A DNA stretch of 64,000 nucleotides from Escherichia phage vB_EcoS_AKFV33. The DNA lies in the sequence record NC_017969.1. One strand, given 5' to 3'. The notes beneath the pieces were generated by a model, which saw nothing but the letters and a program-made list of their open reading frames with translations, had not been told where the DNA came from and made no database searches. The position numbers and the translations under genes were made by a program. Shown here in pieces: positions 1,638 through 58,681 of this stretch. Each line of letters begins with the position of its first letter. The stretch's first letter is position 1.

Positions 1638-1694
1638 TCTAATTTAGCTCCTATAATAGCGGCTATATTTCAAGCCGCTAGGGTAATAATTTAA

Positions 1695-4499: not shown

Positions 4500-4732
4500 A
4501 GTATAAACTCCAGTTATTTAGGGGATTGTTCCGCATTACCTGCTAGAAAAGTAGTGGCAGGTAATAAGTAACAATCCGCTCGCCAATATAATCAATTTAA
4601 AGAACTCCACGCAGGCTGCTATATCCCAGTTAGGGGGCAGGATGATTTATGGGGAATCACCTAACCGTCAAATTTTATCAAGTTATCGCTCTTTTCGAAC
4701 TGGGTACATCTTAAAACCTATCGGCTAGGTTG

Positions 4733-44375: not shown

Positions 44376-44469
44376 ATGTATACCTCCAATTTATAAAATA
44401 TATTATATTTAAATTTCACTAAATAAGCAAATGAAATTTAAATATAATAGCCCCGAAGGGCTATTTGAG

Positions 44470-44823: not shown

Positions 44824-44826
44824 ATA

Positions 44827-45681
44827 TTATACCGTAAAGGGGTATGCAATAGCAGGATGGTGTTTGTAACCACGAACAGTAAAATCATCCTTACTTACCC
44901 AGGTCAATACATCCTCCAGAGTTCGGATATTTGGATTGATTTCTAGAGTAGGATGTGCAAAAGGTTCACGATCGAATTGCTTATGCTCCATCAAAACATT
45001 ATACTGATCCTCATAGATATGAAGATTGATAATCTTCTGGCGTGCAATTCCTGGTTTAAGGCCTGTAATCTGTGCCATTAATGCTAGAAGCGTATAGCAC
45101 TGAACCATGTTAAATACTTGGCCTAACAGGAAGTCATTAGATCTCTGAAAAGAGTTCAGGTATAATGTATCTCCCAAAATAGAGAACTGATGAGTGTGCA
45201 TACATGGACGTAAGCAACCTTTCGAGAACTCTCCAGGATTCCAGAAGGTTAGAATTTCCCCACGATCATCAATGCCCTTCTTCAGGTTATGATAAATCTT
45301 GGCTAGTTGGTCAAACATAAGACCATCGGAATTAGTCCACTGACGTCCTTGAACACCATAGACTCGTCCCATATCATCCTCACCTTTGCGATATGGATTG
45401 TCTAGCCAAGCTAAGTTTTCATTTGCATTAGCATTCCATGTGTTAACACCAATAGCGCGGAATTGTGCTGCTGAATCATACCCACGCAGATACCCAATCA
45501 TTTCCATTATTGCTTGTTTTGCAAACGCCTTACGAGTAGTAATAAGGGGGAATTCCCCTGCACCTACGTTAAAAGTAAAGTCTGCGTCAATAATGGTGAG
45601 GCAACGAACCCCCGTTCTAGGATTCGTTACCCACTGACCCTCTGATAGAATATGTTTTCCAACTTCGATATACTGATCCAT
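44827..45681 (-). CDS. thyA: thymidylate synthase
   Basis: 284 aa; catalytic-region motif RPCMHTHQF and overall ThyA pattern. Confidence 0.85.
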
Positions 45682-46214
45682 TAATAGGTAACCAATTCCT
45701 GTACAAATCGCAGGCTGTTATCACTGTTTGCGCCAGTTGCGTAAACTAAACGAGTAGATTCATAGTTGTAATCTAGAATCGTATTATCCAGATGTACATC
45801 TGCCTCTAGTTTTTGATCACTAAAGATTGTGGATACGAAAGCACTTTCAATATGACCATGAATATACATTTCGTACAGTAATGTTGCGCCACCTAAAACC
45901 ACTGTCTGTTGATCTTTTAAGAATGTAGGCAATGTATCCCCAATCTTAGAAATTGGAATGTAAATATCATGCGTAATATCGTCTGGCAGTGGACGATCAG
46001 CACGAATAAATAGATCAGAAGCCCCAATCATACGTTCCCTAACGGCGTATGGAAGAGCTAAATAAGTACCAGCACCAATGATGATGTTATCTGGATTCAA
46101 CACGTCCAGTTGAGAATAGAAAGCATCTAGTTCTTCTTTGAAGGAACCCCATGGAAGTTTACCGTGGAGGCCGAACTCCCCATTCGGCCCAACTGCATAC
46201 ATTGCTGTAATCAT
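45681..46214 (-). CDS. frd: dihydrofolate reductase
   Basis: 177 aa; DHFR-like N-terminus; adjacent to thyA; ATGA overlap with nrdB stop. Confidence 0.7.
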
Positions 46215-47356
46215 AAGAAATCTCCAAATTCATTACCCAGATCTTTCAGAGTATCAGTAGAGGTTTCGGTGACTTGACCTACACGATATGCTGCACCAAT
46301 CTGGATTTCTTGTGGAGCAGGCTGTAAAGAAGTGGTATCCAACCAGTTCATGATCCACGGAATAGGGTTTTTGGTGATTACTGGTAAATGACTAGGCCAT
46401 TCTACACCGATGTGCATAAATGCATTACGTCCCACAAAATACAGATATTCTTCTAGAAGTTCTGCATTTAAACCAATCAGACTACGACCTTTGAAAATGA
46501 AATGACCCCATTCAATTTCAGTTTTCAGAGTTTTCAGAAGCTGTGCGGGTGCTTTAGCCAATGCTTCATCCACCAGATCTTTGTCAAACTGCTGGAACAT
46601 AATCTGGATGATTGCTTTAGACATCTGAGTGTGTAGAGCTTCATCTTTAGCGATTAGTTGTAGGTTTTTAGCAATACCTTGCAGAATATCGTTCTCTGCT
46701 AATGCAAAGGTACATGCAAAGGATGCGTAAAACTGCATTGCTTCCAGACCGTAGATTGCAAAGTAAGCGTCTAATAGCTTAGCCTGAGTTTCACGTTTAA
46801 CTTCAGGGAACTCAGTTTCTGGATACGTATTGTCGCCACGATGATCGCGTACTGCGATGAAATACTGACCTAACTGATATAGCTCATCAAATAGCTCAAC
46901 AGAATCAGCGATGCGTGCGAATGCTTCCTGGTTTTTGGTTACAGAATCAATAAATTCTGCTGGATCAGTCAGCACATTACGAATAATATTGCTATAAGCA
47001 CGACTATGCAGATCTTCAAAATAGCTCCACTGCTTGAGCATACCTTCCAATTCTGGGCGACTTACAAGTGGCATAATAGCTGCTTCAGGGGCACGACTGA
47101 TAAAGGAGTCAGTTTGAGTTTGCCATGCTAAGTTCAGGAGTGTAATTTCCTGAATTTCACGCGGGAGATTACCCCACTGCTTTTTATCAGCTTCAAGACT
47201 AATTTCAGTTTCAGTCCAGAACTGGGAACGCTGCAACAGAGCTAATCGCTCTAGTTCGGGGTGTGCCACACGCACATAATCTGCGATACCCAAAGAATCA
47301 CCTAGGAAAAGATCAGCGTTAGTATGGTCCCATTCTAAGTTAAGTAAAGTAGTCAT
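46211..47356 (-). CDS. nrdB: ribonucleotide reductase class Ia beta subunit
   Basis: 381 aa; di-iron ligand motifs, C-terminal tail. Confidence 0.85.
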   Translation of the reverse strand: MTTLLNLEWDHTNADLFLGDSLGIADYVRVAHPELERLALLQRSQFWTETEISLEADKKQWGNLPREIQEITLLNLAWQTQTDSFISRAPEAAIMPLVSRPELEGMLKQWSYFEDLHSRAYSNIIRNVLTDPAEFIDSVTKNQEAFARIADSVELFDELYQLGQYFIAVRDHRGDNTYPETEFPEVKRETQAKLLDAYFAIYGLEAMQFYASFACTFALAENDILQGIAKNLQLIAKDEALHTQMSKAIIQIMFQQFDKDLVDEALAKAPAQLLKTLKTEIEWGHFIFKGRSLIGLNAELLEEYLYFVGRNAFMHIGVEWPSHLPVITKNPIPWIMNWLDTTSLQPAPQEIQIGAAYRVGQVTETSTDTLKDLGNEFGDFL

Positions 47357-47850
47357 TTAGCTTCTCCGTTGTTTGCAAAGTCCCCATGAAGTTCTAGTAG
47401 TTTGATGTCTCTCCATTCTATAGCTTCTTCTAGGGTTTTAAAAGTTTTTGTGTAAGATTTGCCGTCTTTGCCTATCCTAACCTGAAATGAAGTGCCTTTT
47501 ACACGAATATTTTTCATTCCAAGCTGGTTATCCGCTCTTGCACACGAGTTCATAGAATTTTGAGAACTCGTGGCTTCACGGAGATTATCCCAGGCACAGT
47601 TGGACGGATTAGTATCTTTATGGTCGATTTTTCCTTCTGGTATTTCTCCAGTCATATACAAGAAGGCTAGGCGATGAGCTAAATATTGAACTCCTTCAAC
47701 TTTTATACGAAGATACCCTAATTTATCGTAGGTTCCTGCTTTAGCGTTCCATAAATGCTTTGCTAAAGTTTTTCTTGGGAGCCAGGTAAATTCGCCAGTT
47801 TCAGGGTCATAGGAGATTAGCTCTTTTAATCTACTCTGTGTTAATTTCAT
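47353..47850 (-). CDS. HNH homing endonuclease-like protein between nrdA and nrdB
   Basis: 165 aa; HNH-type motif (YLRIKVEGVQYLAHRLAF..IDHKD..N) plus C-terminal AP2-like region. Confidence 0.7.
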   Translation of the reverse strand: MKLTQSRLKELISYDPETGEFTWLPRKTLAKHLWNAKAGTYDKLGYLRIKVEGVQYLAHRLAFLYMTGEIPEGKIDHKDTNPSNCAWDNLREATSSQNSMNSCARADNQLGMKNIRVKGTSFQVRIGKDGKSYTKTFKTLEEAIEWRDIKLLELHGDFANNGEAK

Positions 47851-47896
47851 ATAGATATTATAGCAAATCTGGTAGCGATTAGCAAGTAAAATTTCA

Positions 47897-47930
47897 AAGA
47901 AAAAGGAGACCCGAAGATCTCCTTGTTTTT
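47897..47930 (-). terminator. bidirectional terminator hairpin
   Basis: AGGAGA/TCTCCT stem flanked by A-run and T-run, downstream of nrdA. Confidence 0.45.
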
Positions 47931-47931
47931 A

Positions 47932-50262
47932 TTAAATAGTACAACCACCGGATGCACAACCGGCTGCTTCTTCTCCAGCACCTCCACCATTTGCGGTATT
48001 GAAGTTAGCGTAATACCAAGTTTTCCACCCATACTTAACAGCAGTCATGAAATCACGAACTACTACTGGGCCAGGAATGATTTCATTCTCAAACTTGGTG
48101 TAGTCATAGTACATATTCGTACTGATAGACTGACTGAAGAATTTCTGCATAGTTGCTACCCATTTGATCCACTCGATACGATCTACATCATAAGCCAGTT
48201 TATAGCTCATTAACGTTTCCCAATCGGTTGCACCTGGAGCAATTGCAATTACTTTATTTACTGCACTACCTTTAATAGATACAATCTTACGAGGCGGTTC
48301 GATAGAGTTAGTAACTCCTAGCAGAACAGAAGAACTTTCTCCTGGCATCTGAGCAGTCAGAACAGAGTTACGCATACCATATTTCAGAATATCTGCACGC
48401 AGAGACTCCCAATCCATTTCTAGACCTACGGATACCAGTTCATCAACAGTTTTCTTGTACGTGTCGATTACCAGAATTCCTTTAGATGGTTTAGTGCGAT
48501 CAAACCACTCGCATGCACCCTGTTCTTTAGCTAGGCGTACAGAGGCTTTATGCAGGAAGTAAGACAGTTTTTCAGCCTCACGGTGAATCCAGTTACGGGC
48601 TTCAATACCTTCATAAGCCAGACCTTCTGCTGCCATTGCACCTGCTGCGTTCATTAGTCCAATACCAACATTACGACGTTTCTTAGCCGTATATTCCATA
48701 GTTGGGAACGGATAATCCTGAATTTCAATAATTGTATCAACGAATTTCAGAAGGATGTAGCAAGTTTTTTCCCACTCAGCCAGAGATTCCATGCGCCCAA
48801 GTACAACACCACCTAAGTTACACAGAGATACTTCACCAATATCCTCCGGCTTCATTTGATCAAGCTGCTCTTTTGTCTTATACAGCTCTGTGATATGATG
48901 GAACGGGCGTGTAGGCTGAGTAATTTCAACACAAAGGTTTGTCATACGGATCGGATCAAGGAAGTTACCGTGACGATTAGATTCCCCGATGTGATGAGCA
49001 TACATACGTCCTGTTTCCATTCGGATACGTAGCCAAGTATCTAGGATTTCTTTTGCAGAGACTTTAGGAGCTGCAGGAACTGTTTTTCCTTCGTGGTCGA
49101 TCTTTGTAAGAGATGCCACACGTTTCTCCGCTGCCACGTAGATTTCTTCAAATTTAGCCTCGTCATCACTATAAAACGCTTCATGAACTTCTGGAGCATA
49201 GAAGTATGACATTAGCGTAATATCTTCGTTTTTAAGATAACGTTTTAACAAAAGATTGTTAAAGCTCAGAGAATAATCCATCTTATCGATTTTATTCTCA
49301 TCTGTAGCACGTTGTTGCTTAACCTGCATCAATTGAATGATTTCAGGGTCGAAGTATGGATAAGACACTGTAGCAGAACCACCACGAGTTTGCTGAGTAT
49401 TGGCCTTTACTGAGCGGTCAATGTGTCGATAATATGGTAGTTTTCCGGAATGCGGGAATGCCCCATTTCGCACCGGATCAGCAATTGATCGGCTTTCAAG
49501 ATGATACCCGATTCCCGCTCTGGCTGCGACCATTTTGAAGACGATGTGCTCGGCGGTGTCGATTGAATCCAACGTGTCAGTGGAATCCACGAGGCAGCAA
49601 CTAGCAAATCCACGGTCACTAGAGCGCAGACCAACCAGTGGCGGCGTAGGAACGTTGATTTTGTGGAGTGACATTGCGTTGTAGAGGTCGATTGCATCTA
49701 GAATTGTCCAGTTAGGTTGAGATAACATCGCCATTGCCATACCCATGTAGGCAAACTGCGGAGTTTCATAAATTTCACCAGTGGCTATGTTACGACGGGA
49801 ATACTTATCAAAGAACTGCTTCAGTCCACCACTAGTAAAAAGACGGTCACGATCATGGTCGATAACCTGATTCAGAGCTTCAAATTGCTCATCGGTAATC
49901 CATGCACTCATGTCTTCCCATGCACCTACGCTAACCATGTGGTCATGGAAGAAGCGCAGAGAAGGCGGTTCGAAGGAATCATAAAGGCGTTTACGCATTT
50001 GCGCAAGACGTAATTCCTTTGCTGGCACATCATATGCTGGATTATCTTTAATAAGACTTTCAGCAGCTTTAATTAATGCATCCATCAGAGTGTCGGAATC
50101 TACAACCCCTTTAGGCAGAGTTTTTTGAGCAGCCATAGTAATGGCTGACCAACTTACATCAACTGTTTTGCAACCATACTCTGCCCAACCATTTAGTTTT
50201 TCAGGAGCAAAGTCTTCTACAGTACCGTCACGTTTAATTACTTTTTCAATGCGATGGCTCAT
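47932..50262 (-). CDS. nrdA: ribonucleotide reductase class Ia alpha subunit
   Basis: ATP-cone N-terminus (MSHRIEKVIKRDGT); track ORF extends to 50367 but ATG at 50262 has SD AAAGGAAAG. Confidence 0.85.
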   Translation of the reverse strand: MSHRIEKVIKRDGTVEDFAPEKLNGWAEYGCKTVDVSWSAITMAAQKTLPKGVVDSDTLMDALIKAAESLIKDNPAYDVPAKELRLAQMRKRLYDSFEPPSLRFFHDHMVSVGAWEDMSAWITDEQFEALNQVIDHDRDRLFTSGGLKQFFDKYSRRNIATGEIYETPQFAYMGMAMAMLSQPNWTILDAIDLYNAMSLHKINVPTPPLVGLRSSDRGFASCCLVDSTDTLDSIDTAEHIVFKMVAARAGIGYHLESRSIADPVRNGAFPHSGKLPYYRHIDRSVKANTQQTRGGSATVSYPYFDPEIIQLMQVKQQRATDENKIDKMDYSLSFNNLLLKRYLKNEDITLMSYFYAPEVHEAFYSDDEAKFEEIYVAAEKRVASLTKIDHEGKTVPAAPKVSAKEILDTWLRIRMETGRMYAHHIGESNRHGNFLDPIRMTNLCVEITQPTRPFHHITELYKTKEQLDQMKPEDIGEVSLCNLGGVVLGRMESLAEWEKTCYILLKFVDTIIEIQDYPFPTMEYTAKKRRNVGIGLMNAAGAMAAEGLAYEGIEARNWIHREAEKLSYFLHKASVRLAKEQGACEWFDRTKPSKGILVIDTYKKTVDELVSVGLEMDWESLRADILKYGMRNSVLTAQMPGESSSVLLGVTNSIEPPRKIVSIKGSAVNKVIAIAPGATDWETLMSYKLAYDVDRIEWIKWVATMQKFFSQSISTNMYYDYTKFENEIIPGPVVVRDFMTAVKYGWKTWYYANFNTANGGGAGEEAAGCASGGCTI

Positions 50263-50404
50263 TTGGCTTTCCTTTTTATAGTTATCAGGATTTAAGGAAT
50301 ATTCTACTTTATTATCGGTCATTAGGCAAATAAAATTTTCTGATAGAAAAGGCCCGAGTATTTTCATACCCAGGCCCTGTATATTACCAGTCTAGCTTTT
50401 TAGC

Positions 50405-50626
50405 TTATTCAATTACTTTAGCTCTAGCTACTTCTTTTAATAGAATATCTATGGAGGTGCTCAGCTCGTTATAATTGAATGGTTTATTTGGATTTGAGGT
50501 TACAATTTTCCACGCTAGGGTTGTCTTAGGACTTTCTTCCCCTTCCTTACGTGTAATCATATTAGCAGCACTCAGTGAAGTACGATGTATTTTAGTTTTA
50601 CGGCTCAGATGAACGACGTTTCCCAT
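50405..50626 (-). CDS. hypothetical protein
   Basis: track ORF trimmed to ATG abutting phoH stop. Confidence 0.4.
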   Translation of the reverse strand: MGNVVHLSRKTKIHRTSLSAANMITRKEGEESPKTTLAWKIVTSNPNKPFNYNELSTSIDILLKEVARAKVIE

Positions 50627-50627
50627 A

Positions 50628-51380
50628 TTACACCTTCCCCATGTCTTTAAAGATGTCATAGAATGCTTTAGACTCAACAGAACGAACGTTATCAATCAAT
50701 TCGATCATTGAGAATGGGGCATTTTCGTATTTCTCATAGACTTCCATAAGGAGTGCTAGACCTGAGTCACCTTTAATGTCTTTCTGAGCTATATCTCCGC
50801 AGATAATTAAACGGCAGTCTTGTCCTACACGAGTTAGAAGACAAATCATTGCCTCAACGGAAATATTCTGAGCTTCATCGACAATTACATAGGAGTTGTT
50901 GAAAGTTCTGCCACGAGCATGTTCGACAGCCAAAAATTTAATTTTCTGACGTTCGACATATCCCTTATAGGCATGATCGCCGATGGCCCATTTCATACCA
51001 TCAGCTATTGGCTCCAACCAAGGCTCTAGCTTTTCTGCTAGATCACCAGGAAGCATACCAAGAGACTTACCTAGAGGTTCATTAGGACGTACGAGGATAA
51101 CTTGCTCAATATCTGAGTGAATGTCTACGAGTTCCTGAGCTGCAAGAACGGACGGAATAAAGGTTTTACCAGTACCTGGCTCACCGATACCCACAGTCAC
51201 TGTGTTGTTCTTGATCATATTGATATATGATTTTTGCTCGCGGTTTTTACCTACTAGGGATTTAGCAACTGGGTTAGCGTAATCATTAGAAAAATCAGCC
51301 TGAATTACGTTATTCTCATACTTGTTGCCACGCTTTCTTGAACCATTGCGGTTCTCTCTTTTTTGACGTGCTTTTCCCAT
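50628..51380 (-). CDS. phoH: PhoH-like ATPase
   Basis: Walker A GEPGTGKTF; ATG at 51380 has SD AGGAG upstream (track starts at a GTG). Confidence 0.8.
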   Translation of the reverse strand: MGKARQKRENRNGSRKRGNKYENNVIQADFSNDYANPVAKSLVGKNREQKSYINMIKNNTVTVGIGEPGTGKTFIPSVLAAQELVDIHSDIEQVILVRPNEPLGKSLGMLPGDLAEKLEPWLEPIADGMKWAIGDHAYKGYVERQKIKFLAVEHARGRTFNNSYVIVDEAQNISVEAMICLLTRVGQDCRLIICGDIAQKDIKGDSGLALLMEVYEKYENAPFSMIELIDNVRSVESKAFYDIFKDMGKV

Positions 51381-51682
51381 AAATAACACTCCTATAGTGT
51401 ACTTCGCTAACAGAGGATCAACAAAAAGATCTTGTTTATCAACTTACAAATATATTATACCAATATATACAGTAAAAAGCAACTACAATTTTAAATAAGC
51501 CTATGATATTGCATTTAAATAAAAAATTTGCTTGCTTTTAACGTGAGATGTGTGATACTAGATAATCATTTTATATCGCGTACACGAGTGCGTGATTATA
51601 CAATCTTTAATAGAAATTGGCAAATAAAATTTTTTCAAAAATTGATTAAAGTCAAGTTATTTAAGAATGCTAAAAAATTTTA

Positions 51683-51712
51683 TTGACATAGTGGTATTTT
51701 TATATTATACTA
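51683..51712 (+). promoter_or_regulatory. sigma70 promoter (-35 TTGACA) for rightward genes
   Basis: consensus TTGACA followed by TATATTATAC, about 25 nt upstream of the SD for gene 51735. Confidence 0.5.
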
Positions 51713-51734
51713 TGTACTAAATAGGAGAAATAAA

Positions 51735-52403
51735 ATGCCAAAGAAATTGAGTACGGAAGAAGTCAATAATAGACTTTTAGATAGAGGAATTGTCTTAGTT
51801 GGGGAGTATATAAATGCTAATACTAAGGCTAGTTTTAGATGTTCAGTGGGGCATGTATGGGAAACAAAACCATCAGTGTTACTTAACATGGGATTTGGAT
51901 GTCCATATTGCAGTGGGAAAGCTAAACTAACTCCTGAAGTAATAAACCAGGAATTAAGTAATAAAGGAATACAAATAGTAGGCAAATATGTAAATAATAG
52001 AACTCCGACCCTTTTTAGGTGTGAAAATGGCCATGAGTGGAATACTACTATTAATGCAGTGAAAAATTTAGACAGTAATTGCCCGATATGTAAAAAAGAA
52101 GGCAGGTCTAAAACAAAACTATATGTTATGTATAGTGAATCTTTAGGTACTAAGATTGGTATCTCTAATAAACCGGGAACTAGATTAGGAAAAATTAGCA
52201 GAAATGCTAATATACCAGATCTTAAATTATTTAAAGTATTTGATATCTTAGATTATACTAAGTGCCGTAAAATTGAGAAAGCAGCACATGAGCATTTTAA
52301 AGAATGGAACTGCTATTATAAGGATTTTGATGGTGCTACAGAGTTTTTTGATATTGAACCAGATACAGCAGTAAAATTTATTGAGGAAAATATTAATGAC
52401 TGA
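51735..52403 (+). CDS. T5orf172-domain protein (GIY-YIG-like superfamily) with N-terminal zinc-ribbon repeats; homing-endonuclease-like
   Basis: 222 aa; repeated FRCSVGHVW..CPYC and FRCENGHEW..CPIC units; call from domain recollection. Confidence 0.55.
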   Translation: MPKKLSTEEVNNRLLDRGIVLVGEYINANTKASFRCSVGHVWETKPSVLLNMGFGCPYCSGKAKLTPEVINQELSNKGIQIVGKYVNNRTPTLFRCENGHEWNTTINAVKNLDSNCPICKKEGRSKTKLYVMYSESLGTKIGISNKPGTRLGKISRNANIPDLKLFKVFDILDYTKCRKIEKAAHEHFKEWNCYYKDFDGATEFFDIEPDTAVKFIEENIND

Positions 52404-54243
52404 AGCTGAATTATTCGATAATATCTATGGTATTACAGATGGCTTTGCAGACTCTACCCTAAAGCATAATAATGCTAATAAACCCTCTGAGCGTTTTCCT
52501 ACTCAGCGGGATATGATTGCAGGTGAACTAAGTAAATTTTTAACCTTGCAAGAAATGCCCGTACAGATCAGGACAGCACACTCAATCGGAGATATTCATT
52601 TCCATGACTTGGATTATTCCCTTTTGGGCATGACTAACTGTTGTCTAGTAGCTCTGGAAGATATGCTAAAAAATGGTATGAAGGTTGGTAATGCTGAAAT
52701 TAGCACTCCAAACTCTATCACTACTGCGGCGGCTATTACTGCTCAGATTATCACTCAGGTTAGCTCCCATCAGTATGGTGGTACTTCTGTAGATCGCCTT
52801 GATGAAGTATTAGCCCCTTATGTTCGTAAATCCTATGACAAAAATCATGCGTTTGCAAAACGTTGGACTAAGGATGAAGCCAAAGCATCAGTAATGGCTA
52901 CGGAGATGACTGAAAAAGAAGTCTATGACGCTTGTCAGGGTTTAGAATATGAAATCAATACCATGTTCAACTCTAATGGTCAGAGTCCATTTATTACCTT
53001 TGGTTTTGGTCTAGGAACTTCCTGGGAAGCACGTCTAGTACAGAAAGCAGTACTGAAAGTACGCATGGATGGTTTAGGTATCAATAAACGTACAGCTATC
53101 TTCCCGAAACTGGTATTTGTACTTCGCGATGGCGTAAATATGAAACCAGGAGATGTTAATTATGACATCAAGAAGTTAGCTATGAAATGTACTGCTGAAC
53201 GTATGTATCCAGATTATATCAGCTATGACAAGGTTGTAGAAGTTACTGGAGACTATAAAGTTTCTATGGGCTGCCGTTCATTCCTAGCTGCTGCAGAAGA
53301 TGGTGAAACTGCTGGCCGTAATAACTTAGGTGTTGTTTCTGTAAACTTGCCTAGAATTGCTATCGAAGCTGAAGGAAATATTGATCTATTCTTTGATTTG
53401 CTTGAGCTACGTGTGGATACAGCGTTAAAAGCATTGGAGTGGAGAGTTGATCGCTTAAAATACATCCAAGCTAAAGCTGCACCCATCCTCTATATGTCAG
53501 GAGCCTTTGGGTTACGCTTGGAGCCTGATGAATATGTATTCGATCATTTCTATAACCGTGCTTCTGTATCTCTAGGGTATATTGGTTGCCATGAAATGCT
53601 ACAGTTCATGTTCGGCAAAGATGTAGACACAATGTCAGAGACCTGCATCAAGTTTGTTCAGCGTGTATTGCAGTACATGCGAGATAGAGTCGATCAGAAG
53701 AAGGAAGAGACTAAGTTAGGTTATAGCCTGTATGCTACACCGTCAGAGTCCCTATGTGATAGGTTTTGCCGTTTAGACCGTGAATATTTCCCAGAGCATG
53801 AAGATATTCTGTCTAAAGGATACTACACTAACTCGCACCACCTTGATGTAGAGCGTAAAGTTGCTCCTAACGTGAAATTTGATTATGAATCTAACTTTAC
53901 GCCTATTGCTTCTGGTGGGTGCATTTCCTATGTAGAACTACCGGATATGAAACGATTCCCAGATGCACTGGAATGGGTTATTAATTATGCTGCTAGTAAG
54001 GTTCATTACTTCGGTATTAATACCCCAGTGGATTCTTGTGGTAAATGTGGATTCTTAGGTGAAACAATAGCATCCGAAGATGGATTCAAGTGCCCTATCT
54101 GTGGTAATCATGACCCCGAAACTCTTGAAGTAACTCGTCGAGTTTGTGGGTATCTTGGAAATCCAGGTGCTCGTCCGTTTAACCCAGGAAAACAACATGA
54201 GGTTATGGGCAGGGTGAAACATCAGGATATTCGAGCTAAGTAA
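52396..54243 (+). CDS. nrdD: anaerobic ribonucleoside-triphosphate reductase (class III)
   Basis: C-terminal glycyl-radical motif RVCGYLG and Cys-rich zinc site; ATG at 52396 with SD GAGG (track starts at a TTG). Confidence 0.85.
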   Translation: MTEAELFDNIYGITDGFADSTLKHNNANKPSERFPTQRDMIAGELSKFLTLQEMPVQIRTAHSIGDIHFHDLDYSLLGMTNCCLVALEDMLKNGMKVGNAEISTPNSITTAAAITAQIITQVSSHQYGGTSVDRLDEVLAPYVRKSYDKNHAFAKRWTKDEAKASVMATEMTEKEVYDACQGLEYEINTMFNSNGQSPFITFGFGLGTSWEARLVQKAVLKVRMDGLGINKRTAIFPKLVFVLRDGVNMKPGDVNYDIKKLAMKCTAERMYPDYISYDKVVEVTGDYKVSMGCRSFLAAAEDGETAGRNNLGVVSVNLPRIAIEAEGNIDLFFDLLELRVDTALKALEWRVDRLKYIQAKAAPILYMSGAFGLRLEPDEYVFDHFYNRASVSLGYIGCHEMLQFMFGKDVDTMSETCIKFVQRVLQYMRDRVDQKKEETKLGYSLYATPSESLCDRFCRLDREYFPEHEDILSKGYYTNSHHLDVERKVAPNVKFDYESNFTPIASGGCISYVELPDMKRFPDALEWVINYAASKVHYFGINTPVDSCGKCGFLGETIASEDGFKCPICGNHDPETLEVTRRVCGYLGNPGARPFNPGKQHEVMGRVKHQDIRAK

Positions 54244-54250
54244 GCTAATC

Positions 54251-54285
54251 AGCCGGGTTGCTAGTCGACCTGGCTTTTATTTTAT
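54251..54285 (+). terminator. rho-independent terminator after nrdD
   Basis: AGCCGGG/CCTGGCT hairpin followed by TTTTATTTTATTT. Confidence 0.5.
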
Positions 54286-54314
54286 TTGCTTTCAGCCAAA
54301 AATTTATATATAAT
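54286..54314 (+). promoter_or_regulatory. sigma70-type early promoter (TTGCTT-n17-TATAAT)
   Basis: A-tract, -35 TTGCTT, -10 TATAAT upstream of gene 54344. Confidence 0.55.
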
Positions 54315-54343
54315 AGATTTATAAATTTGAGGAGGTAGGAATT

Positions 54344-54724
54344 ATGACTTTAAAACCGTATATAGTGGAGTCTACGTGTGGCAGTTTCCACCTGGGTGTG
54401 GATGATATTGCTGAGGCTGTCTTTGCTGCCACAGGTGATTACTCTCATATAGGGGGTGCTGGGTACCCCACCGTTATTGGCGATTGGGTGGAAACAAATC
54501 TAGATGTGTCGCCTTATAACCCGTATTGCTTGTTTGATGAAGACAGAGATGAGGTAAAGTGTAATCTTGAATTTGTGTATAATAGAGTATTAAAAGTATA
54601 CCAACGTAGTCCCGAGGGGTACGAAGATATTACTTGTAGTATTAAACAGTATCTTAAAGATGTATACTCTAGTTTTTCTGACGAAGGCCTAGAAACAGTT
54701 GCAGTGGAGTTTAATAATGACTAA
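54344..54724 (+). CDS. hypothetical protein
   Basis: 126 aa ORF with SD GGAGG. Confidence 0.45.
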   Translation: MTLKPYIVESTCGSFHLGVDDIAEAVFAATGDYSHIGGAGYPTVIGDWVETNLDVSPYNPYCLFDEDRDEVKCNLEFVYNRVLKVYQRSPEGYEDITCSIKQYLKDVYSSFSDEGLETVAVEFNND

Positions 54725-54923
54725 GAATGTGAAACACCTTAAATATCGCTTAATCTATAACGGACGTATGGAAACAGAAGATCTGGCCCAATTAGCTATT
54801 AATTCTAATGAGGTTATGGTGCGTGCGCTAGCAATTGAAAAGTTGCGTGCTTCTTATGAAAATCATGTTATGGAACTAGAGGAGAAACTGTATGGACTTC
54901 TTGAATCAGAGTCTAAAAAGTAA
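54717..54923 (+). CDS. hypothetical protein
   Basis: ATG overlapping upstream stop. Confidence 0.4.
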   Translation: MTKNVKHLKYRLIYNGRMETEDLAQLAINSNEVMVRALAIEKLRASYENHVMELEEKLYGLLESESKK

Positions 54924-55086
54924 TCCAGAAAACATGCTTATTGAGCAATGGAACTTTGGTTATAATGCCGGTATAGCTACTTGTATTGCTAGATTGGATA
55001 TGCTTATTAAGCAAGAAAAGGTACGCCCGGAGGAAGCAATTTTACTCCGAAATATTATCGAAGGATTTAAGCAAGGAATCGTATAG
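54892..55086 (+). CDS. hypothetical protein
   Basis: 64 aa ORF with SD GAGGAG. Confidence 0.4.
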   Translation: MDFLNQSLKSNPENMLIEQWNFGYNAGIATCIARLDMLIKQEKVRPEEAILLRNIIEGFKQGIV

Positions 55087-55904
55087 TGCGTAGATTAATT
55101 ATTATTAGCGGTGCAGGTTTGAGTGTTGAAAGTGGTGTACGAGCTTTTCGTACTGATACTGCTAGTGGTAAAGCACTGTGGGATGATTATGATCTAGAAG
55201 AAGTATGTAATATTCATGCCTTTCGTGGTAATTTTTATCATAAAACCCATATGTTTTACAACAAGCGTCGTGAAGAGCTAAAAACTGTTGAACCCAATCT
55301 TGCACACTTGCGTATTGGTGAATGGTATAAACAATATCCAGGTCAAGTAGTAAACTTGACTACCAACGTTGATGACCTTATTGAGCGTGCTGGCGTTCCA
55401 CATAGTGACATTCTGCACATTCACGGATATTTAAAAGAGGTTGTTGTAGCTGATAGCTACAATAGTAGCAATAAACGGATTATTGATGTAGGGTATAATT
55501 CTATTGATCCAGATGATTATAAATGGGTTAAACCTAATGTTATCTTCTTTGGTGAGGTTGCTCCTGCCTATAAAACAATGTATGAGGTTTTTGATGGTAT
55601 CACCAGTCATGATATGATCATCATTGTTGGGTGCTCTAACCAAGTAATTAACTTCTACTGGGAGCTATTTCCTATTCTGAATCTTACTGCTGCAAAACTT
55701 ATGGTAGTTAACTATTACGATAGTGCAGTAGCTATGGAACCAGGCTATCAGGGCATGACTCGTAGTGAAATGTATCAGTTAGAAGAACGTGGTATTCCTT
55801 ACTGGAGTAAAGGTGCTGTGGATGCCTTTAGTGATCCCGATTTTATTGCTCGTGTGGAAGCTCATCTAGAAGGTAAACCCTATGTCCAACAAAAGCATGT
55901 GTGA
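55086..55904 (+). CDS. Sir2-like NAD-binding protein (sirtuin family) without zinc-ribbon cysteines
   Basis: 272 aa, GTG start; motifs GAGLSVESGVRAFR, TTNVDDLIERAG, HIHG, KPNVIFFGE, IIVGCS. Confidence 0.7.
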   Translation: MRRLIIISGAGLSVESGVRAFRTDTASGKALWDDYDLEEVCNIHAFRGNFYHKTHMFYNKRREELKTVEPNLAHLRIGEWYKQYPGQVVNLTTNVDDLIERAGVPHSDILHIHGYLKEVVVADSYNSSNKRIIDVGYNSIDPDDYKWVKPNVIFFGEVAPAYKTMYEVFDGITSHDMIIIVGCSNQVINFYWELFPILNLTAAKLMVVNYYDSAVAMEPGYQGMTRSEMYQLEERGIPYWSKGAVDAFSDPDFIARVEAHLEGKPYVQQKHV

Positions 55905-56044
55905 TCTTTTAGTGTGGCCGGACGGTAGTTGGTGCTACCGTTTCGAATTTGCTACCGATGATTTCTCATGGAAGAGTGATGATTTCTGTGTTATCTATGA
56001 AGATACAGCAGAATGGAAAGAGTTCCTTATTAAGGAGGGAGAAT

Positions 56045-56230
56045 ATGGTGAAGAAGATTTTTAAGGGTATCTGGAAAGGTCTAGTATGGTTTGTCAACCT
56101 AATCGGTATGATTACCATTTATTCTCTGTTCCTATCTGTTATGTGGGGTAAAGGTGAATTGAAGGTTCCAGTTCCTTTTACTGATGAAGTTAAAGTCTGG
56201 ACGTGGGATGCTACTGGTGGAAATAAGTAA
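56045..56230 (+). CDS. small membrane protein
   Basis: ATG with SD AGGAGGGAG; hydrophobic product MVKKIFKGIWKGLVWFVNLIGMITIYSLF... Confidence 0.35.
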   Translation: MVKKIFKGIWKGLVWFVNLIGMITIYSLFLSVMWGKGELKVPVPFTDEVKVWTWDATGGNK

Positions 56231-56723
56231 TACTCCTGTGATTTTCCTGGATATTGATGGGGTGCTCAATTCGAGCATCTCCCACCATCATGCACCTGAT
56301 GATGAAAAGATTTTCTTTGGGAGTGACTGGGTTTTCAAACCGCTTCTCAAGGCTTTTCAAGATTTTATTCGTCCTTCCTCGATAATGATTGTTGGGGTAT
56401 CCTCATGGTTCTCTGTCAGGAATGAGATGGAGAACGTTCAGATTATGACCGGATTAGGTCTTATCGATCGTTTTCTTGGTACAACGGATTTTACTGGTGG
56501 TGGATTATCTAGGGGTAATTCTGTTCTTCGCTTCGTTGAAAAGCATAAGCTCAAACATTGGTGTGTACTGGATGACGCTGGTGCTATGATGTATCAGTAT
56601 CCAACGGTTATAGTCAATGGTAGAACTGGAATAAATCTTCAAGATTTAAAAGCTGTTAGCTATATGCTAGAATTTAGCCCAGATCTTGAAATGTGTAAAT
56701 CCTTACAACAATTTAAGGTGTAA
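56184..56723 (+). CDS. HAD-like hydrolase (phosphatase)
   Basis: 179 aa; HAD motif I VIFLDIDGVLN. Confidence 0.5.
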   Translation: MKLKSGRGMLLVEISNTPVIFLDIDGVLNSSISHHHAPDDEKIFFGSDWVFKPLLKAFQDFIRPSSIMIVGVSSWFSVRNEMENVQIMTGLGLIDRFLGTTDFTGGGLSRGNSVLRFVEKHKLKHWCVLDDAGAMMYQYPTVIVNGRTGINLQDLKAVSYMLEFSPDLEMCKSLQQFKV

Positions 56724-56725
56724 AT

Positions 56726-57154
56726 ATGTTCAATAATGTATTCTCTAAAGAAGCTAACCCAATTTTGGTTAACTTTTGGCGTACTCTCCCAGCTAGCCTG
56801 TATAATGAGGCTATTAACTCTTTGAAAATATGGTGTGAGAATAACGAAATCTCCTTTGCTTTTAAAGATGATATTGATGAGGCTCCCTGTATTGGTTTAA
56901 TTGTGCAGGTAGAGGAGGGTCTTGAAGAGATTGTGGGCTGGAAAGAGTTAGACGAAATGGGCTTAGTTTTTGCGTTAAATTATAAACTGTTTATGCCTGC
57001 TAAGCATCGCCTTGTTGTTAACTATAAAACTAGTGAATCTCCTGGTTTTCAGGTTAATGAACGTTATGGTTGGTCTTACTCACCGGAAGAAGTAAATGAG
57101 GGGATTCAGAAACTTCGACGTTTCGGGTATATGATCCCGGGTTTAACTGCTTAA
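56726..57154 (+). CDS. hypothetical protein, paralog A
   Basis: 142 aa; shares DDPCIG..ALN..LF.P and C-terminal G-x-x-I/V-PGL with the next ORF. Confidence 0.5.
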   Translation: MFNNVFSKEANPILVNFWRTLPASLYNEAINSLKIWCENNEISFAFKDDIDEAPCIGLIVQVEEGLEEIVGWKELDEMGLVFALNYKLFMPAKHRLVVNYKTSESPGFQVNERYGWSYSPEEVNEGIQKLRRFGYMIPGLTA

Positions 57155-57163
57155 GGAGGCAGG

Positions 57164-57556
57164 ATGGAACAAGTATATTGGCGTCAGATTGACCCTAGTT
57201 TGGTGAAACGTGCGGAGAAGCTGCTACAACGTTGGTTGGGGGTAAGGCAAGCCTCCTTCTCTTTTCCGGAGCAGCAAACGGATGATCCATGCATTGGCGT
57301 TTTCCTGTCTGGATATGCCGGGGAATGGGAGATGGATTGGAATGAATTGTCCGCTATGAGTTTAATTGTTGCCCTAAATTTCTCTTTGTTCCATCCACGT
57401 GGTTTGGCCATATGTCGTGTGCCTGATGACGGTTGTTCGCCCCATCTTTTACAGGTGGAAGATGATATTTGGGAGTACACTCCAGATATTCTCAAAGAAG
57501 CTAAAGAACAATTAAACCGTGTTGGGATTTATGTTCCAGGCCTAAATGATGAATGA
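57164..57556 (+). CDS. hypothetical protein, paralog B
   Basis: 130 aa; tandem paralog of the previous ORF. Confidence 0.5.
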   Translation: MEQVYWRQIDPSLVKRAEKLLQRWLGVRQASFSFPEQQTDDPCIGVFLSGYAGEWEMDWNELSAMSLIVALNFSLFHPRGLAICRVPDDGCSPHLLQVEDDIWEYTPDILKEAKEQLNRVGIYVPGLNDE

Positions 57557-57695
57557 TTTTTATTAGCTGAAATTTGTAATCCGGGCTATTAGTGCTCGGA
57601 TTATTACATAATCTTTCCAGTCGATTGACAGTCAAAATAAATTGTCGTTGACAATTTGGATGGATTATGTAATAATATATGTATTGGAGGTGAGG

Positions 57696-58148
57696 ATGTC
57701 ATTCACACAGCAAGAACTTTTAGATAACTTCCGATATGAAGATGGTAAGTTATTTAGAACTACAGGAAGAAATGCAGGGAAAGAATGTTGTGTTTCTACG
57801 GGTAACGGATATTATCGTATATCTCTAGGGAATAGGACTATGCTTCGGCATAGAGCAATATTTTTAATGCATCATGGATACTTACCTGATTTAGTAGATC
57901 ATGTGAATACTATAAAAGGTGATGATCGTATTGAAAATCTTAGAGAGCAGACAGTGTCCGGTAATCTAAGAAATATCAAATATAAGAAAGGAATGCATGT
58001 TTACCCTTCTGGTAGTAAGAACTGGCAAGTAGTATTTACTATTAACCGTAAACGTATAGTTAAAGGAACATATGACAACTATGAGGTTGCATGTTCTATG
58101 GCCAAGATGTTTAGAGGTCAATTATACGGTAGGGAATCAATCCAGTAA
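57696..58148 (+). CDS. HNH homing endonuclease-like protein
   Basis: ATG at 57696 with SD GGAGGTGAGG; HNH-type motif (YYRISLGNRTMLRHRAIF..DHVN..N) with AP2-like C-terminus. Confidence 0.65.
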   Translation: MSFTQQELLDNFRYEDGKLFRTTGRNAGKECCVSTGNGYYRISLGNRTMLRHRAIFLMHHGYLPDLVDHVNTIKGDDRIENLREQTVSGNLRNIKYKKGMHVYPSGSKNWQVVFTINRKRIVKGTYDNYEVACSMAKMFRGQLYGRESIQ

Positions 58149-58155
58149 AATTTCA

Positions 58156-58186
58156 TTTGCAAGGGAGTATTATTTTATAGTATAAT
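58156..58186 (+). promoter_or_regulatory. sigma70-type early promoter (TTTGCA-n19-TATAAT) at the start of a ~0.5 kb leader
   Basis: -35 and -10 hexamers with A/T-rich upstream region. Confidence 0.45.
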
Positions 58187-58681
58187 ATTCCCATAAATGA
58201 GAGACATTAGTAAAAATTGATTTTGCTAATTTTTCTTGTTTACAATCCGCGATACGGAACAGTTAGGCTGCCCCATTAAGGGTTGTTTTAACTATTACTA
58301 GTGTTTATATTGCATTAGTTAATCTTCAATTAAGTGATCTGTGTACCCTGAATTCGGAAAGGTAAATCCAAACCGTGCATATTTAGCTCGTTATATAGGC
58401 AGAGCTTTATATGGGGGTGCGAACGAAAAGAGCAGCGAATGGCGGCACGTACAGTAGTCACCTACCAATAGGATAGTGAGGACAAATAGAATCGGCTTAG
58501 CGGCCAATGACCTAGGTTCTATTCTGTATATGAGCGAAGAGAGCACAGCACTGAGATATGATAACTTATTCATATTGTTTGATGATAATTGATGTTTACG
58601 TAAATAGTAGTAATAGTTGTTCTATTCTTTCTGAATAGTCCTAAAGAAAAGATTTCTATTAATCAACACAGGAGTATTGTT

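What the first reader, a model, noticed from the sequence alone, without database searches (positions are those of the whole stretch)
47353..58148. Homing-endonuclease-like genes flanking nucleotide-metabolism genes
A free-standing HNH endonuclease sits between nrdB and nrdA (47353-47850), apparently with a promoter -10 only a few nt from its ATG. A T5orf172-type zinc-ribbon protein overlaps the start of nrdD (51735-52403), and a second HNH gene lies at 57696-58148. Such elements drive localised gene conversion and mark hotspots of mosaicism.
Basis: partly seen in the sequence, partly recalled or inferred. Interest (0 to 1): 0.4.

Follow-up and report, generated by a model that had tools for sequence, protein, structure and literature searches.

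The report
Homing endonuclease genes beside RNR genes
Three small selfish nuclease genes sit beside the nucleotide-synthesis genes of a T5-like phage (evidently the published phage AKFV33); related phages differ in whether they carry them, and pieces of the neighbouring genes travel with them. This is real but already annotated and well understood.

Summary
All three genes exist as described. HNH1 (47353-47850, minus strand) and HNH3 (57696-58148) are I-HmuI-type HNH nucleases with an AP2-fold DNA-binding tail. The gene at 51735-52403 has two treble-clef zinc fingers plus a T5orf172 (GIY-YIG-fold) nuclease domain, and it overlaps nrdD by 8 nt. Catalytic residues are intact and dN/dS is 0.04-0.06.

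Related T5-like phages show precise presence/absence at all three sites. At least four different HNH genes occupy the nrdA-nrdB gap. Phage FFH1 is about 100% identical to the window around site 3 but has 99 nt where the window has a 609-nt cassette. Distinct sequence blocks travel with the genes: the first ~185 nt of nrdB, and the first ~235 nt of nrdD including a swapped N-terminus. This matches the pattern of T4 MobE.

The -10 remark is correct. The host nrdB promoter ends 6 nt before the HNH1 ATG, which predicts a leaderless mRNA. That layout is kept in a distant Klebsiella phage.

The window is evidently phage AKFV33, where these genes (ORF96, ORF100, ORF111) were annotated and discussed in 2012. 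T5orf172 endonuclease genes near ribonucleotide reductase genes in T5-like phages were surveyed in 2023. Only the leaderless layout is a modest new detail.

The parts
47353..47850 (-). HNH1: free-standing HNH endonuclease gene (165 aa). It has an N-terminal beta-hairpin region, an HNH motif (D76-H77, N89, N98) and a C-terminal AP2-fold domain. It corresponds to AKFV33 ORF96.
47851..47931 (-). nrdA-HNH1 spacer. It holds the nrdA terminator hairpin (47903-47924) and the host nrdB early promoter (-35 at 47880-47885, extended -10 at 47857-47862). The ATG follows 6 nt after the -10 and there is no Shine-Dalgarno sequence, so a leaderless transcript is predicted.
   Evidence: The same promoter drives nrdB directly in phages without the endonuclease gene, and it is annotated T5P28 in T5. 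The junction is contiguous and 98-100% identical in 27 of 437 records. The 6-nt spacing is kept in STWB21 and Klebsiella phage Sugarland.
47172..47356 (-). First ~185 nt of nrdB. This is a sequence block linked to HNH1, a probable co-conversion tract that contains or adjoins the endonuclease target.
   Evidence: Carriers (window, SE11, Th1) share about 30 mostly synonymous differences from all 14 empty-site phages in nt 1-185, and no association remains beyond that. The 47200-47400 bin is 82% identical to empty-site phages against 98-99% to carriers.
51645..51734 (+). Left end of the site-2 cassette: a promoter (-35 TTGACA at 51683-51688, -10 TATACT at 51706-51711), a leader and a Shine-Dalgarno AGGAG. 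Homology with phages lacking the endonuclease gene ends at the -35 element of the nrdD promoter.
51735..52403 (+). T5orf172-type endonuclease gene (222 aa). It has two tandem C-x3-H...C-x2-C treble-clef zinc fingers (C36/H40/C56/C59 and C96/H100/C116/C119) and a GIY-YIG-fold nuclease domain (Y130, K140-I-G142, R150, E203). It corresponds to AKFV33 ORF100.
52396..52630 (+). First ~235 nt of nrdD, which travel with the T5orf172 gene. The N-terminus is non-homologous (MTEAELFDNIYGITDGFADSTLKH... where empty-site phages have MNRNDELKYKEIQSLIRNCKEIIEGSADEELLF...), followed by a diverged block. This is the probable co-conversion and target-immunity tract.
   Evidence: Identity is 68-76% to all empty-site phages but 93-100% to the carriers EH7 and KFSSM up to about 52630. 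Beyond that it is 92-96% to everything. Shivani's distantly related T5orf172 gene is joined to a related N-terminus, MTENEL....
57572..57695 (+). Left end of the site-3 cassette: a degenerate copy of the terminator hairpin and a diverged copy of the early promoter upstream of the origin-binding-protein gene (-35 TTGACA at 57648-57653, -10 AATAAT at 57671-57676), then a Shine-Dalgarno GGAGG.
57696..58148 (+). HNH3: a second free-standing HNH endonuclease gene (150 aa; D68-H69, N81, N90) of the same broad family as HNH1. It corresponds to AKFV33 ORF111.
   Evidence: Pfam HNH_3 E=2.3e-11. 39% identical to HNH1 over the HNH core. 100% identical at DNA level to Shivani and SHSML-45. Exact protein match to AET24723.1, 'putative homing endonuclease [AKFV33]'. 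GC 0.35, dN/dS 0.06.
58149..58186 (+). Right end of the site-3 cassette: a second copy of the same promoter (-35 TTGCAA at 58157-58162, -10 TATAAT at 58181-58186). Homology with empty sites resumes at 58181.
   Evidence: Window 57572-58180 (609 nt) replaces 99 nt in FFH1, T5 and NBEco002. The FFH1 flanks are 99.4-100% identical to the window.

Best explanation
The region carries three free-standing homing endonuclease genes in a T5-like phage, evidently vB_EcoS_AKFV33. Two encode I-HmuI-type HNH enzymes with an AP2-fold DNA-binding tail. One encodes a T5orf172 (GIY-YIG-fold) nuclease with two zinc-finger DNA-binding modules.

Each gene sits directly downstream of a pre-existing host early promoter:
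- HNH1 follows the nrdB promoter.
- The T5orf172 gene follows the nrdD promoter.
- HNH3 follows the promoter upstream of the origin-binding-protein gene.
Each is therefore expressed as the first gene of a host operon. The downstream host gene is translated from a ribosome-binding site inside the 3' end of the endonuclease gene (sites 1 and 2), or transcribed from a duplicated promoter copy (site 3).

The inferred mechanism is as follows. During co-infection with a relative that lacks the gene, the enzyme nicks or cuts that genome close to the insertion point. The likely targets are the first ~200 nt of nrdB, the first ~230 nt of nrdD, and the 99-nt terminator/promoter spacer. Recombinational repair then copies the endonuclease gene plus a short stretch of flanking sequence into the recipient. 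The carrier's own flank is diverged and so presumably not cut.

What is shown: the domain architecture, intact catalytic residues, purifying selection, presence/absence at precise sites, several alternative endonuclease genes at one site, and sequence blocks linked to the genes. What is inferred: cleavage activity, the location of the targets, and directional inheritance.
For: Family and fold:
-.

Purifying selection:
- dN/dS 0.04-0.06.

Presence/absence among related phage records:
- HNH1 allele in 27-31, T5orf172 allele in 5 and HNH3 in 41, out of roughly 440-540.

The nrdB-nrdA gap in the 23 distinct phages compared (window included):
- 106-107 nt in 14, 575 nt in 3, 606 nt in 1 and 621-626 nt in 5.
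- These gaps hold at least four different HNH genes. Three are inserted at the same point after TATAATATCT, and one lies upstream of the promoter.

Natural near-isogenic control:
- FFH1 is 99.4-100% identical to the window from 52800 to 58600 except for the 609-nt cassette.

Sequence blocks linked to the endonuclease genes:
- nrdB nt 1-185.
- nrdD nt 1-235, including a swapped N-terminus. This N-terminus is also associated with Shivani's divergent T5orf172 gene.

Other support:
- GC is lower in the endonuclease genes than in the flanks.
- The best-matching relative changes at each endonuclease gene: Th1/SPC35, then EH7, then FFH1, then Shivani.

Precedent:
- T4 MobE lies between nrdA and nrdB, nicks the 5' region of T2 nrdB, and its recombination point falls within the first 189 nt of nrdB.
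- T5orf172 endonuclease genes are abundant in T5-like phages and 33% lie near ribonucleotide reductase genes.
Against: - No cleavage assay or cross exists for these three proteins.
- The HNH1 allele has no Shine-Dalgarno sequence and may be poorly expressed.
- FFH1's own endonuclease gene at site 1 shows no linked nrdB block, so linkage blocks are not universal.
- The blocks could also arise from ordinary recombination between diverged lineages, with breakpoints at conserved promoters.
- One carrier (bobsandoy) has a truncated 102-aa HNH3, so some copies are decaying.
Confidence: 0.8

Rival explanations
1. The genes are domesticated DNA-binding or regulatory proteins, or nucleases serving the phage, for example regulators of the nrd operons. 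They are no longer mobile. Their patchy distribution reflects ordinary modular exchange.
For: The 2012 AKFV33 paper called ORF100 a DNA-binding-domain protein. CapR, a relative of T5orf172 zinc-finger domains, is a transcriptional repressor. All three genes sit on promoters. dN/dS is very low.
Against: The catalytic residues of both nuclease types are fully conserved, which a pure DNA binder would not need. Most relatives (more than 85%) lack each gene and are viable. Alternative, unrelated endonuclease genes occupy the same site.
Confidence: 0.08
2. The genes work mainly as weapons in competition between phages. They cut the essential nrd and replication-region DNA of co-infecting relatives, which excludes those markers and lowers the rival's yield. 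Spread of the gene itself is a by-product.
For: The targets are inferred to lie in or next to conserved, important genes. Endonuclease genes clustering near essential genes is a general pattern. Several different endonuclease genes compete for one site.
Against: Nothing here distinguishes this from plain homing, because the sequence signatures are the same. nrd genes are often dispensable in the laboratory (own knowledge).
Confidence: 0.1
3. The nucleases are inactive relics. The cassettes move only by general homologous recombination between the conserved promoters and genes that flank them.
For: Cassette boundaries coincide with conserved promoter elements. One truncated copy exists. HNH1 lacks a ribosome-binding site.
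Against: dN/dS of 0.04-0.06 over up to 17% nucleotide divergence shows that the proteins are under selection. Catalytic residues are intact. The leaderless layout is conserved across genera. Near-identical copies (99-100%) sit in otherwise diverged genomes.
Confidence: 0.05
4. One of the HNH enzymes is the nickase that makes the site-specific single-strand interruptions typical of T5 virion DNA.
For: I-HmuI-type HNH enzymes, and by report T5 F-TflI/II/IV, are nicking enzymes (own knowledge; reference listed).
Against: T5 itself lacks both HNH3 and the window's HNH1 allele, and most T5-like phages lack them.
Confidence: 0.02

Closest known systems
Phage T4 MobE (free-standing HNH homing endonuclease between nrdA and nrdB; Wilson & Edgell 2009, PMC2790892)
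   Same: Both are free-standing HNH genes in the nrdA-nrdB gap. [quoted passage not shown] Here the HNH1-linked block covers nrdB nt 1-185. The AKFV33 authors already drew this parallel.
   Different: The phage family differs (Demerecviridae here, T4-like there). Gene order on the transcript is nrdA, endonuclease gene, nrdB in both, but mobE has no promoter and depends on nrdA transcription. HNH1 sits immediately after the nrdB promoter and appears leaderless. No sequence comparison with MobE was made here, and the activity of HNH1 is untested.
I-HmuI (Bacillus phage SPO1 intron-encoded HNH nicking endonuclease, PDB 1U3E)
   Different: I-HmuI is intron-encoded and ends in a helix-turn-helix domain. 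HNH1 and HNH3 are free-standing and end in an AP2-fold domain.
Phage T5 putative HNH endonuclease P-TflVIII (AAX12027) and the characterised T5 enzymes F-TflI/II/IV
   Same: P-TflVIII occupies exactly the same insertion point after TATAATATCT, between nrdA and nrdB. It has the same family and architecture.
   Different: It is only 42% identical in protein to HNH1. It has a 26-nt leader with AGGAG and a TTG start, where HNH1 is leaderless. It carries its own distinct nrdB 5' sequence block. F-TflI/II/IV lie in the tRNA region and are absent from AKFV33.
T5orf172 homing endonuclease genes of ICP1 and T5-like phages, and the CapR zinc-finger domain (Barth, Dunham & Seed 2023, PMC10448857)
   Same: The architecture is the same: tandem CapR/DUF4379-type zinc fingers plus a T5orf172 nuclease. 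The association with ribonucleotide reductase genes is the same, as is variation in repeat number (2 fingers here, 3 in Shivani).
   Different: This particular allele was not singled out in that survey as far as I read it. The conserved overlap with the nrdD start and the nrdD N-terminal module that travels with the gene are details worked out here.
HNH-AP2 endonuclease family (bacterial and phage relatives of the plant AP2/ERF domain)
   Different: Pfam AP2 itself does not reach any threshold on HNH1 or HNH3.

Membership tests
HNH endonuclease, I-HmuI / Pfam HNH_3 type | Sequence match to the HNH_3 profile above the curated cut-off | tested here: met
   HNH1 scores 60.5 bits and HNH3 43.6 bits, against a cut-off of 24.8.
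HNH endonuclease, I-HmuI / Pfam HNH_3 type | Catalytic Asp-His general base pair and metal-binding Asn residues of the beta-beta-alpha-metal motif | tested here: met
   D76, H77, N98 and N101 are invariant and N89 is nearly invariant in 46 homologues that include both window proteins. They align with the DHKD...N...N pattern of I-HmuI. In HNH3 the residues are D68, H69, N81 and N90.
HNH endonuclease, I-HmuI / Pfam HNH_3 type | Beta-beta-alpha-metal fold | tested here: met
AP2 DNA-binding domain | Match to Pfam AP2 (PF00847) | tested here: not met
   No AP2 hit appears even at E<=10 on the isolated C-terminal segments. There is only a weak Arm-DNA-bind_3 match at E=0.026 for HNH3.
AP2 DNA-binding domain | Three-stranded sheet packed on a helix (AP2/integrase-arm fold) | tested here: met
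T5orf172 / GIY-YIG-like nuclease | Match to Pfam T5orf172 or MUG113 above the cut-off | tested here: met
   T5orf172 scores 35.1 bits (cut-off 20) and MUG113 27.5 bits (cut-off 22.3).
T5orf172 / GIY-YIG-like nuclease | GIY-YIG-type fold with a conserved Tyr, the (Y/K)IG motif, Arg and a catalytic Glu | tested here: met
T5orf172 / GIY-YIG-like nuclease | N-terminal CapR/DUF4379-type zinc-finger DNA-binding module(s) | tested here: met
   There are two DUF4379 stretches and a CapR match at E=3e-8. The ligands C36/H40/C56/C59 and C96/H100/C116/C119 are conserved.
Free-standing homing endonuclease gene (mobile element) | Presence/absence polymorphism at a precise site among close relatives | tested here: met
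   The FFH1 empty site lies in a ~100% identical background.
Free-standing homing endonuclease gene (mobile element) | Co-conversion of flanking markers, or diverged (cleavage-immune) flanks linked to the gene | tested here: met
   nrdB nt 1-185 and nrdD nt 1-235. At site 3 the divergence is confined to the replaced 99-nt spacer.
Free-standing homing endonuclease gene (mobile element) | Site-specific cleavage or nicking of the allele that lacks the gene | not testable with these tools
   This needs in vitro cleavage or in vivo break mapping.
Free-standing homing endonuclease gene (mobile element) | Super-Mendelian inheritance in mixed infection that depends on the catalytic motif | not testable with these tools
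   This needs phage crosses.

The most novel reading that the evidence does not exclude
The HNH1 allele is expressed as a truly leaderless mRNA. The insertion has placed its AUG exactly at the +1 position of the strong host nrdB early promoter (-10, then 6 nt, then ATG, with no Shine-Dalgarno sequence). This layout has been kept by selection in two Demerecviridae genera, while sister alleles at the same site keep a normal leader with a Shine-Dalgarno sequence. It would be a built-in way to hold a toxic nuclease at a low level while leaving transcription of nrdB-frd-thy intact. It would be a mode of homing-endonuclease expression control different from those described for T4 (no promoter, internal terminators, sequestered ribosome-binding sites).
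Probability: 0.45. Interest if true: 0.35.

Novelty: already known. Interest (0 to 1): 0.17.

Why it matters
The region is a clean textbook example of homing endonuclease genes shaping phage mosaicism. One 11-kb stretch holds three such genes of two nuclease classes. Each hijacks a host promoter, and each is accompanied by a short block of neighbouring gene sequence that travels with it. Natural empty-site and alternative-occupant alleles are available for all three.

For practical work, the block boundaries tell anyone engineering or typing T5-like phages where recombination breakpoints will fall. These phages are widely proposed for biocontrol. The boundaries also show which marker genes (the 5' ends of nrdB and nrdD) give misleading phylogenies.

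It opens no new question. The genes are annotated in GenBank, the nrdA-nrdB case was compared with T4 mobE in 2012, and the link between T5orf172 genes and ribonucleotide reductase genes was surveyed in 2023.

Tried and rejected
- Rfam scan of 46000-59000 at E<=1 found nothing, so no intron or known RNA is associated with the genes. They are free-standing, not intron-encoded.
- Pfam AP2 gave no hit on the C-terminal segments, even in isolation at E<=10. The fold evidence was used instead.
- NCBIfam gave nothing useful: one sub-threshold VisR match.
- PDB sequence search with the T5orf172 protein gave only spurious ankyrin-repeat matches. The fold search was needed.
- The look-up of encoding contigs for the exact T5orf172 protein found no record. 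The source was identified through cluster members and the 2012 paper instead.
- An exact-pattern scan of IMG/VR for the leaderless junction found only SE11. The GenBank phage collection was more informative.
- The IMG/VR locus sample (26 loci) contained no HNH3 carrier. Shivani and KFSSM from GenBank were used.
- The promoter-consensus scan is not enriched over shuffles, so it was not used as evidence on its own.
- One dN/dS pair (window against SE11) was computed with wrong coordinates and is discarded.
- The T5 genome-nickase idea was considered and rejected, because T5 lacks HNH3 and carries only a 42%-identical gene at site 1.
- The idea that the 61-aa ORF at 47847-48032 is a gene was rejected: it overlaps the nrdA 3' end and has no family hit.
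Full report
**What the window is**

The 12.6-kb stretch around the finding matches 542 phage records, nearly all T5-like Salmonella, Escherichia and Klebsiella phages (Demerecviridae, Markadamsvirinae). No single record covers more than about 91% of it.

The gene order is the T5 early region: thymidylate synthase, dihydrofolate reductase, nrdB, nrdA, phoH, nrdD, Sir2-like, HAD-like, two paralogous small genes, then the replication-origin-binding protein.

All three candidate proteins are exact matches to database entries. Their accessions AET24708.1, AET24712.1 and AET24723.1 form one series, and the latter two are named as Escherichia phage vB_EcoS_AKFV33.

The AKFV33 genome paper describes the following (PMC3326045):
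- ORF96, [quoted passage not shown].
- ORF111, a second homing endonuclease next to the origin-binding protein ORF112.
- ORF100, a "DNA-binding domain" protein next to nrdD (ORF101).

My own comparison gives 42.2% identity to the T5 protein. The window is therefore evidently AKFV33, which the BLAST collection I could search does not contain.

**Observation check**

- HNH1 (47353-47850, minus strand, 165 aa) hits Pfam HNH_3 at E=1.2e-16.
- HNH3 (57696-58148, 150 aa) hits HNH_3 at E=2.3e-11. Both fall in PHROG 99 'HNH endonuclease'.
- The 222-aa protein from 51735-52403 has two DUF4379/CapR treble-clef zinc fingers and a C-terminal T5orf172/MUG113 domain.
- Its stop codon overlaps the nrdD ATG (52396) by 8 nt. 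This is the same junction that is annotated in NBEco002, KFSSM and EH7.
- The -10 remark is right. The minus strand reads TTGCTA, 17 nt, TGcTATAAT, atctat, ATG. The ATG therefore begins 6 nt after the -10 hexamer, and there is no Shine-Dalgarno sequence.

**Protein anatomy**

HNH1:
- It aligns with the SPO1 intron endonuclease I-HmuI (PDB 1U3E, E=2e-4) through IDHKDTNPSNCAWDNLREATSSQN.
- In an alignment of 46 homologues that includes HNH3, residues D76, H77, R91, N98 and N101 are invariant and N89 is nearly so.
- Pfam AP2 does not score on either window protein, but it does on about a third of full-length homologues.

The T5orf172 protein:
- It keeps both zinc-ligand sets (C36/H40/C56/C59 and C96/H100/C116/C119) and the nuclease residues Y130, K140-I-G142, R150 and E203.
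- Relatives differ in the number of zinc-finger modules. There are two here and three in Shivani. This is the domain-repeat behaviour described for this family.

Selection:
- All three genes are under strong purifying selection, with dN/dS of 0.04, 0.06 and 0.06 against the most divergent same-site alleles I held.
- They have lower GC than their neighbours: 0.39, 0.32 and 0.35 against 0.41-0.45.

**Site 1: the nrdA-nrdB gap**

Among the 23 distinct phages compared (window included), the gap is 106-107 nt in 14, 575 nt in 3, 606 nt in 1 and 621-626 nt in 5.

The empty gap is simply the nrdA terminator, the promoter annotated T5P28 in T5, a 28-nt leader with AGAGGA, and the nrdB ATG.

Four different HNH genes occupy the gap:
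- The window allele, also in SE11 and Th1.
- The T5 allele P-TflVIII, also in KFSSM, Shivani and L008. It is 42% identical in protein.
- A third allele in EH7 and L012.
- A fourth in FFH1.

The first three all begin right after TATAATATCT, inside the promoter's discriminator. The FFH1 gene is instead inserted upstream of the promoter and brings its own terminator.

Carriers of the window allele share a block of about 30 mostly synonymous differences from every empty-site phage across nrdB nt 1-185. No association remains beyond that. The T5-type carriers have their own distinct block over roughly nt 1-135. FFH1, whose gene sits on the far side of the promoter, has the 'empty' nrdB sequence. 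The nrdA side shows no such block.

This matches T4 MobE closely. MobE is a free-standing HNH gene between nrdA and nrdB. It nicks the 5' region of T2 nrdB, and its recombination point maps within the first 189 nt of nrdB.

**The leaderless layout**

With TATAAT at -12 to -7, six discriminator bases place +1 on the A of the ATG. This is the spacing in the well-known T5 PN25 promoter (own knowledge).

- The T5-type and EH7-type alleles at the same site keep a leader with AGGAG and a TTG or GTG start. The window allele has lost it.
- No in-frame ATG, GTG or TTG lies upstream.
- The junction is contiguous and 98-100% identical in 27 of 437 records that carry the promoter.
- The same '-10, 6 nt, ATG' layout occurs in STWB21 (91.6% nucleotide identity; atctac) and in Klebsiella phage Sugarland. 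Sugarland belongs to a different genus, its gene is 73.5% identical, its promoter sequence is different, and its six bases read attcac.
- phiLLS, a chimeric relative, has a normal leader.

Conserved spacing across this divergence suggests the layout is functional. My reading is that it yields a leaderless, weakly translated message for a potentially toxic nuclease. nrdB is then translated from the GGAG inside the 3' end of the endonuclease gene. This is inference; no transcription-start data for this allele were found.

**Site 2: upstream of nrdD**

The distance from the phoH start to a fixed anchor inside nrdD (window position 52480) differs as follows:
- 452-472 nt in 18 distinct phages without the endonuclease gene.
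- 1090-1092 nt in the window, NBEco002, KFSSM and EH7.
- 972 nt in L027, which holds an HNH-AP2 gene on the opposite strand.

Shivani has a 287-aa, three-finger T5orf172 gene joined to a very divergent nrdD.

- Homology with empty sites ends at the -35 of the nrdD promoter and resumes only at codon ~25 of nrdD.
- The NrdD N-terminus is non-homologous between the two states. The next ~170 nt are 68-76% identical to every empty-site phage but 93-100% identical to EH7 and KFSSM. After about 52630, identity is 92-96% to all.
- Shivani's NrdD begins MTENELIENCKG...DLQHNNANKP, which is related to the window's MTEAELFDNIYG...TLKHNNANKP and not to the empty-site type. The overlap between the endonuclease stop and the nrdD start is also conserved.
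- This family of endonuclease genes and an nrdD 5' module have therefore travelled together for a long time. In the window lineage, recombination has trimmed the foreign tract to about 235 nt.
- Only 5 records carry this allele at 80% coverage or more. A further ~59 match only its 3' quarter at 72-79%. In Shivani that match lies in the different T5orf172 gene upstream of nrdD; the other records were not checked for position.

**Site 3: upstream of the origin-binding-protein gene**

- FFH1 is 99.4-100% identical to the window from 52800 to 58600, except that window 57572-58180 (609 nt) replaces 99 nt.
- The 99 nt are a terminator hairpin plus the promoter annotated T5P32 in T5.
- The cassette is a degenerate hairpin, a diverged promoter copy, GGAGG, the endonuclease gene, and a second diverged promoter copy. 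The gene is thus bracketed by two ~60-65% identical versions of the host promoter.
- The ORF is 100% identical to those of Shivani and SHSML-45, and 41 records carry it.
- One carrier (bobsandoy) has a truncated 102-aa product, as expected for some copies in a cycle of invasion and decay.

**Mosaic pattern**

In 200-nt bins, the window's best relative changes at each endonuclease gene:
- Th1 and SE11 across HNH1 and the nrdB 5' end.
- EH7 across the T5orf172 gene and the nrdD 5' end.
- FFH1 from 52800 onward.
- Shivani for HNH3.

Of the records compared, only KFSSM has an endonuclease gene at all three sites, and its site-1 gene is the T5 type.

**Mechanism, stated with its status**

Shown: nuclease families and folds, intact catalytic residues, purifying selection, precise presence/absence, allelic replacement, linked flank blocks, and promoter-proximal insertion.

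Inferred from established knowledge of free-standing phage homing endonucleases (T4 MobE and Seg proteins; the review listed):
- During mixed infection the enzyme nicks or cuts the genome that lacks the gene, close to the insertion point.
- Repair copies the gene plus adjacent sequence.
- The carrier's diverged flank escapes cleavage.

Rivals are judged unlikely for the reasons given in their entries. They are domesticated regulators, competition weapons, inert relics moved by ordinary recombination, and the T5 nickase.

**Novelty**

The genes are annotated as (homing) endonucleases in GenBank. The two HNH genes were discussed, and the mobE parallel drawn, in 2012. The abundance of T5orf172 endonuclease genes in T5-like phages, their link with ribonucleotide reductase genes and their tandem zinc fingers were published in 2023.

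What I add is incremental:
- Exact cassette boundaries.
- The linked nrdB and nrdD blocks.
- The four-allele series at one insertion point.
- The duplicated-promoter structure at site 3.
- The conserved leaderless arrangement of one allele.

Verdict: observation confirmed, interpretation supported, already known, low interest.

Noticed in passing
L030 (Shivani) 1473-4715; L029 5338-8706 compared with L028 6345-8705: NrdA carries an intein in Shivani (3243-nt gene, annotated 'contains intein splice site'). It also does in IMG/VR locus L029 (1122 aa against 786 aa in its near-twin L028), inserted at NLC|VEI. The window's nrdA has none. The nrd region therefore collects inteins as well as free-standing endonuclease genes.
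   Followed up: partly
L027 9274-9765 (minus strand): A different HNH-AP2-type gene (163 aa) sits on the opposite strand between phoH and nrdD, in a phage whose nrdD has the 'empty-site' N-terminus. The phoH-nrdD spacer is thus used by two unrelated nuclease families.
   Followed up: partly
L028 5310-6277 and L029 4611-5328: Two or three tandem paralogous small ORFs (99-130 aa, with CxH...CxxC-like motifs) fill the nrdB-nrdA gap in a more distant group of phages (nrdD ~72% identical). They have no similarity to the window's endonuclease genes.
   Followed up: no
window 58181-58680: A ~500-nt non-coding stretch lies between the promoter and the origin-binding-protein gene. It is 97-100% identical in one group of relatives and replaced or ~83% identical in another (EH7, Th1, L005, L006). 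There is no Rfam hit. It could be a long leader, a small RNA or an origin-related element.
   Followed up: partly
window 44200-44830, 54344-54724, 55800-56200: Other presence/absence cassettes carry no recognisable nuclease. Two small ORFs at 44112-44823 are matched only by L024. The 126-aa ORF at 54344-54724 (PHROG 11748) is matched only by T5 and FFH1. The segment 55800-56200 is matched only by NBEco002, KFSSM and L012.
   Followed up: no
window 50405-50626 (minus strand): The 73-aa ORF next to phoH matches PHROG 5357, which is labelled 'tail length tape measure protein', and RefSeq copies that name. For a 73-aa early-region protein this looks like a propagated mislabel.
   Followed up: no
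L007, L010, L025 about 2570-3050; L027 about 2220-2530: A further HNH gene, about 50% identical to HNH1 over residues 4-106, lies about 1.9 kb beyond the 3' end of nrdB in four relatives. It has no counterpart in the window.
   Followed up: no
window 47851-47862 compared with L002 1858-1887: Klimuk et al. 2020 report that T5 early promoters share ATATT in the discriminator. The empty-site nrdB promoter reads TATAATATTCC and has this motif. All three endonuclease-bearing alleles inserted there read TATAATATCT. The insertion may therefore change the temporal class or strength of the promoter.
   Followed up: no
L030 11196-11372: Shivani has an extra ~66 nt downstream of HNH3, with a ~56-nt duplication of the promoter-proximal sequence (window 58181-58236 matches twice).
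   Followed up: no
L030 6960-8786: Shivani's whole nrdD is only about 61-72% identical in nucleotides to the window's, while neighbouring genes are 90-98% identical. This suggests wholesale replacement of nrdD together with its T5orf172 gene from a distant lineage.
   Followed up: partly
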